Below are positions 16,465-28,668 of a stretch of 64,000 nucleotides of DNA, in pieces. The position numbers and the translations under genes are program-made. Source of the DNA: a virus (taxonomy: Duplodnaviria > Caudoviricetes); the IMG/VR virus record IMGVR_UViG_3300021426_000072, positions 63,248 to 127,247 of that record; one strand, given 5' to 3'. The number at the start of each line of letters is the position of its first letter. Within the stretch, counting starts at the first letter, position 1. The notes below the pieces were generated by a model. It had not been told where the DNA came from. It saw only the letters and a program-made list of their open reading frames with translations, and searched no databases.

Positions 16465-17247
16465 ATGGCTAATAAGAAGATCAAGGTAGAAGTTGAAACC
16501 AAGGAAGGAACTACTGAAACGATGGAGCTCCCTGAACGGGCAACAGAACGAATTGAAATCAAGAAAGTTCCTGTGGAAAAAGTGCGTATCAAGATCGTCG
16601 GAGATACTCCGCTTCTTGTTCACGCATGGTCTGAAAAGGTTAAGAAGCAGCTCCTCAATGATATGCAGATGACTAAACGTGAAAAGAAGGAAAAGGAACA
16701 CGAAAAGAAAGACCCGTTTGCAGACTTTGTTGAGGCTGCTTACTGGATTACTCCCATGCCGCAGGTGCGTGGTCTTGAACCCGAGAAACAGATCGAACTG
16801 TTTGAAAAGGCAATTACCGATGGTGCTCAGTTTGGCTTTCCTACAATTGCCTTCAAGAAAGCTGCTATTACCGCTTGCTATAGCGCAGGATACATTAAGA
16901 GTACGGCTCTTATGCGTCGGCTATTCCATGTGAACGCAGTTAACGGCGCACATATTGGATCGTCTCAGGAGCTTGCTATTATTAAGACGGAAGAACCGCC
17001 GGAACTGTCTGAAGACGTTGTAAAGGTTGGCCCTTTTAACAATCGTGTACCTGATCTTCGTTATCGTCCGTCTTTTCGTAAGTGGTCTGTTGAACTGGAA
17101 CTCAGTCTGATTAAGACAGGAATGTTTACAATGGAAGACGTTGTCAATGCAATTGATATGGGCGGTTTCATGAACGGCGTTGGCGAATGGCGCACTGAGA
17201 AAGACGGAGAATTTGGTAACTACCATGTTTATCGAGATGGGGAATAA
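16465..17247 (+). CDS. Stand-alone Cas7/RAMP-like protein
   Basis: RAMP-type motifs: IKIVGDTPLLVH (first beta strand), FGFPTIAFKKA (P..s.KG position), LRYRP-F-KWSVEL, and C-terminal G-rich loop GVGEWRTEKDGEFG. Confidence 0.7.
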   Translation: MANKKIKVEVETKEGTTETMELPERATERIEIKKVPVEKVRIKIVGDTPLLVHAWSEKVKKQLLNDMQMTKREKKEKEHEKKDPFADFVEAAYWITPMPQVRGLEPEKQIELFEKAITDGAQFGFPTIAFKKAAITACYSAGYIKSTALMRRLFHVNAVNGAHIGSSQELAIIKTEEPPELSEDVVKVGPFNNRVPDLRYRPSFRKWSVELELSLIKTGMFTMEDVVNAIDMGGFMNGVGEWRTEKDGEFGNYHVYRDGE

Positions 17248-17249
17248 TT

Positions 17250-17741
17250 ATGGCAGCATTTGAATACAAATATCGGATTAACGGTATTGTGAAAGCGCCT
17301 GCGGAAGTAACAGGCGAGGTGTGTCAGAATATTATTAGTGAAGAAGGAACTGTTACTCCAAAAAAGTTGGTTGATGTAAGTAGACCTGAAGACGCTCCTC
17401 TTCACGATGAATTTGAGTGGAATGACGATATCGCTGCTGAAAAGTATCGTGAAGAACAGGCAAGACAGATTATTAAGAACATTGTTATCATTGAAGTGTC
17501 AGATGATGTTGATGAACCTAAAGAAGTAAAATGCTGGGTTAACAGTGACCGAGCGTTTGTTCCGACAGACACGAGGCAGCATGAATATGTAACAATAGAT
17601 ACAGCATTAAACAATGCTGACTGGCGTAATAATTTGATTGAGTCGGCAAAAAGAGACATGCTTTCATTTGTCCATAAATATAAGAGACTCGGAGAGTTAA
17701 ATAAAATTATCACCGATATGAGCGAATTCCTTGGTGCCTAA
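17250..17741 (+). CDS. Partner protein of the RAMP-like gene, function unknown
   Basis: Starts 3 nt after the RAMP stop; VTPKKLVDVSRPEDAPLHDEFEWNDDIAAEKYREEQARQII motif. Confidence 0.7.
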   Translation: MAAFEYKYRINGIVKAPAEVTGEVCQNIISEEGTVTPKKLVDVSRPEDAPLHDEFEWNDDIAAEKYREEQARQIIKNIVIIEVSDDVDEPKEVKCWVNSDRAFVPTDTRQHEYVTIDTALNNADWRNNLIESAKRDMLSFVHKYKRLGELNKIITDMSEFLGA

Positions 17742-17797: not shown

Positions 17798-18245
17798 GGC
17801 AGCCGGGGTTGGCATAGTTGCGTTGAGTAATGTCGAAGAGGGGCAAGGTATGGCAGTCTTGGTCAGTTGAGTACTGTTACGTTCAGTCAGGTCACGTTGG
17901 GGATAGGCAGTCGTGGAGTGTAACGTCACGATAAGTTGTGGATCGGAAAGCGTTGGCAGTCTTGGTGCTGTTTGTTACGTTAAGACTAGTTCTGGATTTG
18001 CTTGTTTAGTTGCGGCAGTCTAGGTACGCTATGATGCGTACTGTTAAGCAGAGAATAGGCAGTCAAGGTAGTGCCTGTTGAGTTCCGAATTGGATGGTTA
18101 TGCTATGGCAGTCTAGGTGTGGACAGGAGGCGGTTTGTCTGCGTTGGTCCCGTTACGGCAGTCGAGGTTAGTTCCGTTATGCTACGACCAGTTGGTTTAT
18201 GGCAGTCATGGCGAGCTGTTGCAAGTAGAGCTGTGTTCTGACTCA
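17798..18245 (+). repeat. Non-canonical guide-like array: 9 units, repeat GGCAGTCNNGG, variable part with 5-nt periodic G
   Basis: Repeats start at 17798, 17852, 17906, 17955, 18014, 18058, 18107, 18157, 18201; unit lengths 54,54,49,59,44,49,50,44. Confidence 0.85.
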
Positions 18246-18704
18246 GAAAAGACTTTCAGGAAAGACTGAATGGCGGCTCGGAAAGACGAGCATTTTTAAT
18301 ATGGAGTGATTGTAAATGAAATATAGTAAAGTTTATAACGCAGATCGAACATTGAGAGAAGAAATAAATCATTTATTAACCCATGAACCTCGTAGTGAAA
18401 GTGAAATGTTCAACGAAAATGATCATCTTTCTATAAGTGTGCGTTATCTGGATGGCAAGGTTGTGGTTATTGAAGTTTGTGGCTGTGTTGACTACAAAGA
18501 AAATGAGTCCAACATTCCTTGGACACAAGGAATACTATATTCCAAAGAAGGATATGAATTAACTGTAACTGAACCCAGAGATGAGTTTTTTGGAGAATGG
18601 AATTTTGTTTACGATGACAATATTTACATCCTGAATGTAATTTAATCAATCAAACCTGAAATATATCAGCATTGGCTGTTTGTAATAAGATAGCTATGAC
18701 AGAT

Positions 18705-27063: not shown

Positions 27064-28218
27064 ATGTATTACGTAACAACAGTATTAAGCAAAAAGCCTG
27101 TGCAGTTAACATGGGAAGATGTCATGTTTGATAAGGTGCCGTTGAATGCACTGCAAATGAATGAATCAAACGGTACGTCTACGATCACAAGAAAATATGA
27201 AACAATTAGTCCCGAAATTCTTGAACAGGCTGATGTAGAAAAGATTATTAATTGGCTAAAACTATACAATCTTCGGTATAAAGAACTTTTTGAAAAAGAC
27301 AGAAAAACTTTATACCACAGTTTCAAAATTCCTAAAGCCACGGGAGGGTATAGAGATATAAATGCTCCGTGCGACGAACTTCAGGATGCTCTTCGAGTAT
27401 TGGTAAGATTCCTGTCTGAAGATTGTGGGATTTTATATCATACGGCTGCGTTCGCATATATTAAAGGACGCAGTATTGTTGATTGTGTGAAAAGACATCA
27501 GAATTTCAACAGCAATTGGTTTTTGAAAACTGATTTCAGCGGGTTCTTTCCGTCTACCACAATCGAATTTGTAATGAAAATGTATTCAAAGATATTCCCG
27601 CTTTCGGAAGTATGTAAAAATGAAGAAGGTTATGCTGAATTAAAGAAAGCATTGTCTCTTGCTTTTCTGGACGGCGGACTTCCGCAAGGAACTTGTGCTT
27701 CCCCGTTCATTACAAATTCAATGATGATTCCGATTGACCATAAATTGTCAAATGAATTTGCGAAGCGGAATTTAATGTATACCAGATATGCAGATGACAT
27801 TCACATTTCTGCAAAAGAATGTTTCCCGTGGAAAGAAATCGTGAAAAATATTGAAGACGCACTGACAGAGTTTGAAGCTCCTTTCAAGATTAAGCCGGAA
27901 AAGACTCATTTCGGTAAGAAGGCTGGCAGATCTGCAAACTGGTGTTTAGGACTTCTTTTGAATAAAGATAACAATATTACAGTTTCTGCCAAGAAGAAAG
28001 CTCAGTTTAAGGCTTCTTTGTGTTCATTTATTCTTGATACACGGAATGGAAAATATTGGAATCTCGAAGATGTATATCATTTAAGAGGTTTGCTTTCTTA
28101 TTACAGCATGGTTGAAAAAGAGTATTTTGAAAATGTAATTAAGCAACAAGAGAACAAATGGAAAGTAAACGTAAGCAAAATTTTTAAAGATTATTTAAGC
28201 GGAACTATTAATGCGTGA
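27064..28218 (+). CDS. Retron-like reverse transcriptase
   Basis: IPKATGGYRDINAP, AFAYIKGRSIVDCVKRH (region X), KTDFSGFFPS, LPQG, YTRYADD; CLGL at the VTG position. Confidence 0.9.
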   Translation: MYYVTTVLSKKPVQLTWEDVMFDKVPLNALQMNESNGTSTITRKYETISPEILEQADVEKIINWLKLYNLRYKELFEKDRKTLYHSFKIPKATGGYRDINAPCDELQDALRVLVRFLSEDCGILYHTAAFAYIKGRSIVDCVKRHQNFNSNWFLKTDFSGFFPSTTIEFVMKMYSKIFPLSEVCKNEEGYAELKKALSLAFLDGGLPQGTCASPFITNSMMIPIDHKLSNEFAKRNLMYTRYADDIHISAKECFPWKEIVKNIEDALTEFEAPFKIKPEKTHFGKKAGRSANWCLGLLLNKDNNITVSAKKKAQFKASLCSFILDTRNGKYWNLEDVYHLRGLLSYYSMVEKEYFENVIKQQENKWKVNVSKIFKDYLSGTINA

Positions 28219-28282
28219 GAAAAGAAATGCAGGATATTTCTGCTCAATAAATGTTATTTGTTGAAACAACAAGTATTATATA

Positions 28283-28371
28283 AACTTTTACCATGAAATA
28301 GTTCAAACACGAATTTTCGCGGGTTCAAGAACCCAGCTCAAATTCTTGTTGGAACTATTTCAGGTAAGGTT
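28283..28371 (+). ncRNA. Long imperfect hairpin downstream of the RT
   Basis: TGAAATAGTTC/GAACTATTTCA, GAATTT/AAATTC and GGGTTC/GAACCC nested stems. Confidence 0.6.
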
Positions 28372-28396
28372 GTGATAAATCATAGTTTTCTTGCGC

Positions 28397-28429
28397 AGAG
28401 CGGGTATAAAAATACTCGCTCTTTTTTTT
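28397..28429 (+). terminator. Rho-independent terminator closing the Ubl-RT unit
   Basis: AGAGCGGGTAT/ATACTCGCTCT followed by a T-tract. Confidence 0.8.
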
Positions 28430-28668
28430 ATGTGGAGTTACGCCTATGTATTAATACCGAGCTGGCCTCTCGGTGCTCCGTAATTTAATAAAAAAGAAAG
28501 ATGTGCTACAACTCCCCTTGTGCTTGTTTGGACGGCGAGTAGCATAAATCAGATTTCTCTCCATACGTCTTTTTGTTCGAGATATCTCACACAAGATACA
28601 CCTTCATGTTGACCTTTCTGTATGGAGTTATTTTCTGTAAGAAGGTTCTGTGGTTGCAGAACCTTTTT

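What the first reader, a model, noticed from the sequence alone, without database searches (positions are those of the whole stretch)
17798..18245. Array units follow a 5-nt grammar: G at every fifth base, lengths stepping by 5
Unit lengths are 54,54,49,59,44,49,50,44, so 7 of 8 equal 5n+4. Counting pentamers back from each next repeat, 52 of 56 start with G by my hand count, most often GT. Unit 2 reads ggcag tcttg gtca gttga gtact gttac gttca gtcag gtcac gttgg ggata; unit 5 reads ggcag tctag gtac gctat gatgc gtact gttaa gcaga gaata. CRISPR spacers copied from foreign DNA could not show this. Inference: one protein subunit binds per 5 nt at the fixed G(T), and the remaining 2-3 bases form a gapped, non-contiguous targeting code; units grow or shrink by whole pentamers.
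Basis: seen in the sequence. Interest (0 to 1): 0.9.

Follow-up and report, generated by a model that had tools for sequence, protein, structure and literature searches.

The report
Phage VIPR guide-RNA array (staggered)
The 5-base rhythm is real and marks a guide-RNA array of a VIPR system, a CRISPR-like, phage-borne RNA-guided DNA silencer first described in 2026. This is a correct blind rediscovery of a known kind of system rather than a new one.

Summary
Nine GGCAG[T/C]C junctions lie 54, 54, 49, 59, 44, 49, 50 and 44 nt apart. In the spacers, G heads 52 of 58 pentamers, whereas 5000 shuffles never exceeded 53%.

The 260-aa gene just upstream is a homologue of the SUSP1 Vipr protein (PDB 36pp; profile E 9e-13; hhalign 98%) and has a predicted Cas7-like fold. 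This gene, a conserved 163-aa partner gene and the same array recur in at least 20 viral contigs.

This matches the published VIPR system (bioRxiv 10.64898/2026.04.26.720920 and .720927). There, one Vipr protomer binds each GGY-NN pentamer, and the NN pairs read DNA while skipping every third base. The 5n+4 spacing fits that paper's "staggered" arrays: the last G of GGCAG is also the first base of the next guide.

The published code finds targets here. Guide 4 exactly matches the codons for AYKNSYFVNAN in Gp2.5-like ssDNA-binding genes of Bacillota (pro)phages (20 hits; reversed control 0). Guide 2 matches the HExxH motif of ArdC-like genes.

Local peculiarities are a relaxed G-(U/G)-(U/A/C) scaffold, no 3' tail, and an accessory protein unrelated to Vap1.

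This scan has already met VIPR in at least 202 other genomes. Verdict: a new member of a known kind, of modest interest.

The parts
16465..17247 (+). vipr gene (260-aa ORF): a lone Cas7-like RAMP protein that would coat the guide RNA, one protomer per pentamer.
   Evidence: phmmer against PDB 36pp_D 'SUSP1 Vipr protein' gives E 3.2e-5. A profile of 20 homologues gives E 8.9e-13 over the full length. The same profile run on the SUSP1 genome gives E 3.4e-15, and hhalign gives probability 98.2%. The AF2 model has pLDDT 87, and its top Foldseek hits are all Cas7, Csm3, Cmr or Cas7-11 proteins. It also matches PHROG 4652, of unknown function. H53, R201, W242 and R243 align with SUSP1 H17, R138, W178 and R179, while D177 is replaced by E241.
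17250..17741 (+). Accessory gene in the vap position (163 aa). It carries the conserved motif PLHxxFEWxDxxAAEKYRLxQA. Its function is unknown.
   Evidence: It follows the vipr homologue in about 20 viral contigs at 18-50% identity. It matches PHROG 15946. No Pfam or PDB sequence match was found. The AF2 model has pLDDT 87 but no clear fold match. It is unrelated to SUSP1 Vap1 (hhalign probability 0.2%).
17798..18245 (+). Staggered vrRNA array of nine GGCAG/GTC junctions and about nine guides. I read each guide as GTCNN GGTNN (G-K-H-N-N)n GGCAG, with the final G shared with the next guide. The guides span 17802-17856, 17856-17910, 17910-17959, 17959-18018, 18018-18062, 18062-18111, 18111-18161 (carrying one extra base), 18161-18205, and 18205 to about 18245.
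   Evidence: Across related arrays, 115 of 146 units are 5n+4 long, and the pentamer logo is G .88, G .66/T .28, C .54/T .33, N, N. The paper's fig. S18 legend describes 1-nt overlapping vrRNAs.
17959..18013 (+). Guide 4, 11 NN pairs. Its predicted target is the antisense strand of the codons for AYKNSYFVNAN in Gp2.5-like / Enc34-type ssDNA-binding genes (PF10991).
   Evidence: The pattern TTnGCnTTnACnAAnTAnCTnTTnTTnTAnGC gives 11 exact hits in viral contigs. It also gives 9 exact hits in bacterial genome contigs, of which 8 have titles naming Bacillota or Mollicutes (three of them Clostridium) and one is an untyped uncultured bacterium. The same pattern read backwards gives 0 hits. Every hit lies in frame with the skipped base at the wobble position. 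The gene family was identified.
17856..17905 (+). Guide 2, 10 NN pairs. Its predicted target is the sense strand of the codons for F(H/Q)ELTHSTGY, the HExxH zinc motif of ArdC-like anti-restriction genes.
   Evidence: It has 3 exact hits in metagenome contigs, all on the same motif and in the same frame. Two of them lie in full ORFs carrying PF08401 plus PF18818. It has 0 hits in viral contigs.
18276..18297 (+). Terminator-like hairpin followed by a T-run, closing the putative vipr-vap-array transcription unit.
   Evidence: One search reports GCTCG-GAAAGA-CGAGC followed by ATTTTT. The next ORF starts at 18316.

Best explanation
The tract is the guide-RNA (vrRNA) array of a VIPR system carried by a 127-kb uncultured gut phage.

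Proposed mechanism:
1. The operon vipr (16465-17247), accessory gene (17250-17741) and array (17798-18245) is transcribed up to the terminator at 18276 (inferred).
2. The transcript is cut at or near the invariant GGCAG/GUC junctions into guides of 9-12 pentamers (inferred).
3. Vipr protomers polymerise along each guide, one per pentamer. They bury the fixed G-(U/G)-(U/C/A) bases and present positions 4-5 (by homology to the SUSP1 cryo-EM structures).
4. The presented dinucleotides pair with double-stranded DNA in which every third base is skipped. The filament stays on the DNA and blocks transcription of genes of competing mobile elements (by homology).
5. The predicted targets here are a Gp2.5-like ssDNA-binding gene of Bacillota (pro)phages for guide 4 and an ArdC-like gene for guide 2.

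The G every 5 nt is the protein's handle on the RNA. The 5n+4 spacing arises because adjacent guides share one G.
For: Periodicity:
- The 5-nt G rhythm is far beyond chance.

Protein:
- The adjacent protein is homologous to the solved SUSP1 Vipr: E 8.9e-13, E 3.4e-15 and hhalign probability 98.2%.
- Its predicted fold is Cas7-like.
- Four of the five base-contacting residues named in the structure paper are conserved, and the fifth is D to E.

Gene context:
- The trio of genes and array recurs in about 20 viral contigs at 25-61% protein identity.
- The family pentamer logo is GGY-NN and units are 5n+4 long.

Published account:
- The papers describe pentamer vrRNAs, one protomer per repeat, the 1-nt-skip code and staggered 1-nt-overlapping arrays.

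Targets:
- Guide 4 has 20 exact in-frame hits in PF10991 genes, against 0 for the reversed control.
- Guide 2 has 3 exact in-frame hits on the ArdC HExxH motif.
- There is no self-target in the phage's own genome, and the phage has no homologue of either target gene.
- Guides from sister arrays give perfect 20/20 matches to PolA and ParB-methylase motifs within just 443 kb of those same target loci. Fourteen of 111 guides reach at least 90% match (four of these are the window's own guides, matching loci fetched with them), against 1 of 111 reversed controls.
Against: - Nothing here shows that the RNA is made, cut or bound. The only RNA-library contig lies on vipr, not on the array.
- The scaffold is looser than published GGY: U at position 2 in 53% of pentamers and A at position 3 in 24%. 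In SUSP1 the Y3 pocket is said to exclude purines.
- There is no 3' tail or pseudoknot as in SUSP1.
- The accessory protein is unrelated to Vap1 and has no recognisable DNA-binding fold.
- Only 2 of 7 regular guides gave convincing targets. Exact matches to conserved peptide motifs recur across homologues, so the 20 hits of guide 4 amount to about one independent event.
Confidence: 0.88

Rival explanations
1. The locus is a decayed or orphaned VIPR locus. The array and genes are recognisable, but the relaxed G-U-H scaffold means the guides no longer load onto Vipr or no longer silence anything.
For: Position 2 is G in only 22% of pentamers and position 3 is a purine in 29%. Unit 7 has an extra base and the first repeat is degenerate. 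Five of seven regular guides have no convincing target.
Against: Both ORFs are intact and conserved. G1 is kept in 90% of pentamers. Two guides keep 20 of 20 and 22 of 22 informative bases matched to real genes. A strain 94% identical keeps the array, differing by one whole unit. The T shift fits the 39% GC content of the genome.
Confidence: 0.06
2. The tract acts at the DNA level, or as a protein-sponge RNA. In this view the phased G(T) pentamers are binding sites for an oligomeric protein (iteron-like, pac-like or TRAP-like), and the variable bases carry no targeting code.
For: Phased short motifs with variable spacers are also typical of TRAP-type RNA sites and of origin or packaging repeats (general knowledge). 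No expression data are available for the array.
Against: The signal is on one strand only. The tract always travels with a Cas7-like RNA-binding protein. The variable dinucleotides spell exact in-frame matches to foreign genes, far beyond chance, in this array and in sister arrays.
Confidence: 0.03
3. It is an unusual CRISPR array whose spacers are acquired from foreign DNA, served by a minimal Cas7-only effector.
For: It has a repeat-spacer look, and a Cas7-like protein lies next to it.
Against: The 'repeat' is only 7-11 nt long. The 'spacers' carry an internal 5-nt grammar that copied DNA could not have. No contiguous protospacers exist; only gapped matches are found. The locus contains no cas1, cas2 or other cas gene.
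Confidence: 0.01

Closest known systems
VIPR systems with 'staggered' vrRNA arrays (bioRxiv 10.64898/2026.04.26.720920, fig. S18 legend and type classification)
   Same: A lone Vipr RAMP gene and an accessory gene lie next to an array of pentamer-coded guides. Neighbouring guides overlap by 1 nt, which here produces the 5n+4 spacing and the shared G of GGCAG/GTC. The system is phage-encoded, and its guides match genes of other mobile elements with the skipped base on the wobble position.
   Different: The paper's supplementary tables are not held here, so the type (I-VII) and the vap class could not be assigned. The paper's text says the ribozyme-interspersed and single-vrRNA forms were confirmed by sRNA-seq, and says nothing of the kind for staggered arrays. 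The window's scaffold is G-(U/G)-(U/A/C) rather than GGY.
Type II VIPR of Escherichia phage SUSP1 (Vipr PDB 36pp; NC_028808 28474-29061, vap1 28031-28471)
   Same: The Vipr proteins are homologous. The gene order vipr, then accessory gene, then array is the same. The guides are built of pentamers, and the 1-nt-skip code finds targets in both.
   Different: SUSP1 has separate vrRNAs of about 100 nt, each with a hairpin or pseudoknot tail of about 40 nt and strict GGT/GGC pentamers. Here the units are 44-59 nt, abut one another and have no tail. The accessory proteins are unrelated. Outside the C-terminal G-loop region, Vipr similarity is detectable only with profiles.
Class 1 CRISPR-Cas backbone (Cas7/Csm3/Cmr4 filaments on crRNA)
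   Same: The predicted fold of the 260-aa protein matches Cas7-family RAMPs. Both use a periodic protein-per-segment reading of a guide RNA.
   Different: The period is 5 nt with 3 bases buried, rather than 6 nt with 1 base flipped. The guide sequence itself carries the periodic motif. There are no CRISPR repeats, no adaptation genes and no other cas genes.

Membership tests
VIPR (Vipr + vrRNA) system | A Vipr protein homologous to the characterised SUSP1 / P. fulva Vipr | tested here: met
   The profile of 20 homologues against PDB 36pp_D gives E 8.9e-13 over profile positions 24-210 and chain residues 4-189. The HMM run on the SUSP1 genome hits only gp039, at E 3.4e-15. hhalign gives probability 98.2%.
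VIPR (Vipr + vrRNA) system | RAMP fold (RRM core, G-loop, thumb) with the RNA-contacting residues | tested here: met
   The AF2 model has pLDDT 87. The Foldseek top hits are Cas7, Csm3, Cmr and Cas7-11 proteins at probability 1.0 and E about 4e-4. The G-loop reads GVGEWR. H53, R201, W242 and R243 align with H17, R138, W178 and R179, and D177 is replaced by E.
VIPR (Vipr + vrRNA) system | Adjacent tandem pentamer RNA genes, GGY-NN or a related consensus, with at least 4 units | tested here: met
   G heads 52 of 58 pentamers, and each guide has 8-11 pentamers. The family logo is G .88, G .66/T .28, Y .87, N, N. The window's own consensus is relaxed to G-K-H.
VIPR (Vipr + vrRNA) system | Guides read targets by the 1-nt-skip (xNN) rule, with skipped bases on codon wobble positions, in other mobile elements and not in the element's own genome | tested here: met
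   Guide 4 was tested, and guide 2. No self-match was found. Sister arrays were tested. Other skip lengths were compared only on the phage's own genome, not on the public collections.
VIPR (Vipr + vrRNA) system | A vap accessory gene of one of the six described classes | tested here: inconclusive
   A conserved 163-aa partner is present, but it is not Vap1 and has no fold match.
VIPR (Vipr + vrRNA) system | vrRNAs are expressed, processed and bound by Vipr, and silence their target | not testable with these tools
   Only assembled contigs could be laid on the stretch, and the metatranscriptome contig covers 16583-16758 (vipr) only.
VIPR staggered-array architecture | Neighbouring vrRNAs overlap by 1 nt, so the end of one marks the start of the next | tested here: met
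   The upstream register ends ...GGCAG and the downstream register starts G-TCNN on the same G. Unit spacing is 5n+4 in 7 of 8 units here and in 115 of 146 units family-wide. The same layout occurs in Gordonia phage Pipp. The actual RNA ends were not observed.
CRISPR-Cas | Arrays of 23-55-nt repeats with spacers copied contiguously from foreign DNA, plus cas1/cas2 adaptation genes | tested here: not met
   The conserved junction is 7-11 nt. The spacers carry an internal 5-nt grammar. Matches to other DNA are gapped only. No cas genes flank the locus.

The most novel reading that the evidence does not exclude
This Vipr clade may be mechanistically distinct from the characterised type II systems. 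Its members have tail-less staggered arrays with an invariant GGCAG/GUC junction and a 163-aa partner of unknown fold. The junction could be a processing or capping signal handled by the unknown partner protein or by Vipr itself. The G-loop (E in place of D177) could tolerate U at position 2 and A at position 3, which would amount to a relaxed scaffold code. The guides could be kept on the first two codon letters of conserved replication-gene motifs (SSB, PolA, ArdC), so that one guide covers many rival elements.
Probability: 0.25. Interest if true: 0.45.

Novelty: new member of a known kind. Interest (0 to 1): 0.3.

Why it matters
The finding shows that sequence reading alone can recover the VIPR grammar. 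It adds a well-defined example from an AT-rich, tRNA-rich 127-kb gut phage to a system published only months ago.

Three points are of practical use:
- It gives a concrete, testable instance of the "staggered" array form, whose RNA ends have not been reported as mapped.
- It shows that the published 1-nt-skip code finds targets in this distant clade. These targets are an ssDNA-binding gene and an ArdC-like gene for this phage, and PolA and ParB-methylase genes for sister arrays.
- It flags a conserved accessory protein of unknown fold.

It also shows that cultured Gordonia and Mycobacterium phages carry this clade. In one of them the array is annotated as a protein-coding gene, which gives laboratories a tractable model.

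Tried and rejected
- Rfam found only the tRNA nearby.
- Pfam found nothing for either protein.
- PDB sequence, Foldseek and VIA-align searches for the 163-aa protein found no credible match. The best Z was 4.6, on a C-terminal helical hairpin.
- A DNA search of the locus against cultured phages matched only the tRNA.
- A Fourier scan in 200-nt windows understated the signal, because the phase slips by 1 nt at each junction. Autocorrelation and end-anchored counts were used instead.
- The junction pattern also picks up collagen-like coding repeats whose spacings are multiples of 9. These were set aside.
- Guide 1 gave 0 exact hits in viral contigs.
- Guide 7, read with a 1-nt bulge, gave 0 hits.
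- Guides 3 and 6 gave 3 hits each, about what chance predicts for 18 specified bases. Two guide-6 hits fall in frame on a shared IIQNGSSLF motif, but I do not count them.
- The other guides do not converge on the five contigs targeted by guide 4.
- Guide 2 with up to 3 mismatches found nothing in those five records.
- RNA evidence is limited. One 176-nt metatranscriptome contig lies on vipr and none on the array. With contigs only, this says nothing about expression of the array.
- TRAP-like, sponge-RNA, iteron and pac-site readings were considered before the Vipr hit and were dropped (see the rival explanations).

Full report
**What is there.** The window is the second half of a 127,247-bp virus record with 38.8% GC. 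It carries nine tRNA genes and a PolIII-alpha gene about 35% identical to those of Bacillus and Geobacillus phages.

Between a 163-aa ORF ending at 17741 and a 109-aa ORF starting at 18316 lies about 570 nt without a credible ORF. In it, GGCAG[T/C]C occurs nine times, on the + strand only. The positions are 17798, 17852, 17906, 17955, 18014, 18058, 18107, 18157 and 18201, giving spacings of 54, 54, 49, 59, 44, 49, 50 and 44. A terminator-like hairpin with a T-run follows at 18276-18297.

**The periodicity is real.** I anchored pentamers to the next repeat and ignored the first 12 nt of each unit. G then occupies position 1 in 52 of 58 pentamers. The best register of 5000 dinucleotide-preserving shuffles averaged 38% and never passed 52.5%.

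G autocorrelation is about 0.3 at lags 5, 10, 15 and 20. The genome background has sd 0.05 and a maximum of 0.18, and the ten strongest 448-nt windows of the genome all overlap this tract. The pentamer reads G, then T more often than G, then T, A or C but almost never G, then N, N.

When the units are written out in register, the '4-mer' irregularity resolves. The upstream register ends in a perfect pentamer GGCAG, and the downstream register begins on that same final G (GTCNN, GGTNN...). Each guide is therefore a whole number of pentamers and shares one G with its neighbour, which gives the 5n+4 spacing. Unit 7 (50 nt) carries one extra base.

**What it belongs to.** The 260-aa ORF immediately upstream (16465-17247) has no Pfam match but hits one PDB entry, 36pp 'SUSP1 Vipr protein' (E 3.2e-5).

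A pattern scan of viral contigs for two junction motifs 30-55 nt apart returned over 120 loci. Some are collagen-like coding repeats with spacings in multiples of 9. About 30 arrays show 5n+4 spacings. tblastn shows that homologues of the 260-aa and 163-aa proteins sit next to those arrays in about 20 contigs, at 25-61% and 18-50% identity.

Further tests confirm the homology:
- A profile of 20 homologues (A1) matches SUSP1 Vipr end to end at E 8.9e-13.
- Run against the SUSP1 genome, the same profile finds a single gene, gp039, at E 3.4e-15.
- hhalign gives probability 98.2%.
- The AlphaFold model (pLDDT 87) retrieves only Cas7-family RAMPs at the top of the Foldseek list: type VII Cas7, Csm3, Cmr4/6 and Cas7-11.
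- Residues that the structure paper names as contacting the fixed bases are H17, R138, W178 and R179. They align with H53, R201, W242 and R243 here. D177 is E241 in this whole clade.

**The published system.** Three 2026 preprints describe VIPR (Viral Interference Programmable Repeat) systems. Their account is as follows:
- A lone, mostly phage-encoded RAMP protein (Vipr) sits with an accessory gene (vap) and vrRNAs built of GGY-NN pentamers.
- One Vipr protomer binds each pentamer and buries GGY.
- The NN pairs read double-stranded DNA in which every third base is skipped, often a codon wobble base.
- The complex silences transcription of competing phages and satellites.
- There are seven types, alternative repeat consensus forms (NNNGG, YNNNG, NNNNG), and 'staggered arrays' whose vrRNAs overlap by 1 nt.

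Pooled over 146 units from related arrays, the logo is canonical: G .88, G .66/T .28, C .54/T .33/A .12, N, N. Of those units, 115 are 5n+4 long. The window's array is a T-shifted version of this logo in an AT-rich genome.

**Does the code work here?** I converted each regular unit into its NN string with single skipped bases.

The phage's own genome holds no match above the shuffled-guide level for any skip length, apart from the trivial self-match at skip 3.

Guide 4:
- It has 11 NN pairs and 22 specified bases.
- It gave 11 exact hits in viral contigs and 9 in bacterial genome contigs. Eight of the nine contig titles name Bacillota or Mollicutes, three of them Clostridium, and one is an untyped uncultured bacterium.
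- The same pattern read backwards gave none.
- My composition-based estimate of chance hits in the viral collection is of the order of 0.03. This rests on an assumed collection size.
- Every hit lies antisense to the codons for AYKNSYFVNAN, with the skipped base on the wobble position, in genes of about 180-200 aa.
- These genes are Enc34-type / Gp2.5-like ssDNA-binding genes (PF10991, E 1e-82; PHROG 112).

Guide 2:
- It has 20 specified bases and gave no hit in viral contigs.
- It gave three exact hits in metagenome contigs, all on the codons for F(H/Q)ELTHSTGY.
- Two of the three lie in full ArdC-like ORFs carrying PF08401 plus PF18818.

The phage itself has neither gene. Guides 1 and 7 gave nothing, and guides 3 and 6 gave chance-level numbers of hits.

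Because the hits of guide 4 are homologues of one another, they count as roughly one independent event. An earlier check in this scan also warned against reading breadth as a designed 'panel'. I therefore claim only that rival Bacillota (pro)phages carrying this replication gene are plausible targets.

**An independent family-level test.** I took 111 regular guides from 24 loci of this clade and scored them against the 443 kb of loci that had been fetched for the window's guides.
- Fourteen reached at least 90% NN match, against one of 111 backwards controls. Four of the 14 are the window's own guides, which match by construction.
- Guides from four other phages matched 20 of 20. Those from L015 and from L023/L084 fall on two motifs (YGPKFVENIV, GKIAELALGY) of the family-A DNA polymerase of the same target elements.
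- The L046 guide falls on a ParB-N/methylase gene.
- An L098 guide matches 17 of 18 inside the same ssDNA-binding gene.
- Chance predicts about 1e-4 such perfect matches in total. The 1-nt-skip code therefore holds for this clade, and its arrays converge on one kind of rival element.

**How this instance differs from the characterised one.** SUSP1 has the same gene order (vipr, vap1, array). Its vrRNAs, however, are separate units of about 100 nt with strict GGT/GGC pentamers and a hairpin tail of about 40 nt. Here the guides abut and have no tail.

The 163-aa partner is conserved (A2), but it has no Pfam, PDB or fold match and is unrelated to Vap1. I could not assign the VIPR type or vap class because the paper's tables are not held.

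**Population and expression data.** The stretch is present in animal-gut metagenomes. A bovine-gut contig about 94% identical carries the same locus but lacks exactly unit 5 (it skips 18014-18057, 44 nt). Arrays therefore change by whole units between strains. A metatranscriptome from the source sample has a 176-nt contig on vipr only, which says nothing about expression of the array.

**Verdict.** The thing is a VIPR vrRNA array of the staggered kind, a new member of a known family. This scan has already met VIPR in at least 202 other genomes.

What remains open:
- how the tail-less guides are cut;
- what the 163-aa protein does;
- how far the scaffold can relax from GGY.

Noticed in passing
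L165:3111-3380 (Gordonia phage Pipp, MN234179.1 33093-33362): The CDS annotated as gp43 'hypothetical protein', directly after the Vipr homologue gp42, is a staggered GGCNN pentamer array. Its runs of 11, 8, 12 and 11 pentamers each end in GGCAG, and one run starts on the last G of the previous run. It is probably a mis-annotated guide array in a cultured phage. Related Vipr genes also occur in Gordonia phages UmaThurman, ODay and Ecliptus and in about 25 Mycobacterium phages.
   Followed up: partly
window 18014-18057: A bovine-gut metagenome contig about 94% identical to the locus lacks exactly this 44-nt unit (guide 5) and is otherwise collinear. This is a whole-unit gain or loss between strains.
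   Followed up: partly
L098:11727-13090: A related viral contig carries three arrays with 23 junction motifs directly after its vipr and accessory genes. This is the largest array of the clade seen here.
   Followed up: no
L152:1158-3080, L156:7109-9046, L135:17767-19005: Guides from sister arrays (L015, L023, L084, L046) match 20 of 20 to family-A DNA polymerase motifs and to a ParB-N/DNA-methylase gene. These genes lie in the same elements that carry the ssDNA-binding gene matched by the window's guide 4.
   Followed up: partly
L156:1039-1064 and L158:2875-2900: Two of the three exact hits of guide 6 fall in frame on the same peptide (IIQNGSSLF) in homologous ORFs of GC-rich viral contigs. 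The number of hits is at chance level, so this is left unresolved.
   Followed up: no
L038, L069, L021/L105, L022, L008: The junction motif GGCAGTCNNGG also occurs in tandem coding repeats whose spacings are multiples of 9, probably collagen-like Gly-X-Y genes. These are false positives for any pattern-based VIPR search.
   Followed up: no
window 16583-16758: A 176-nt contig identical to part of vipr is present in a metatranscriptome of the sample that probably yielded this genome. This is a weak hint that the operon is transcribed, although DNA carry-over is not excluded.
   Followed up: no
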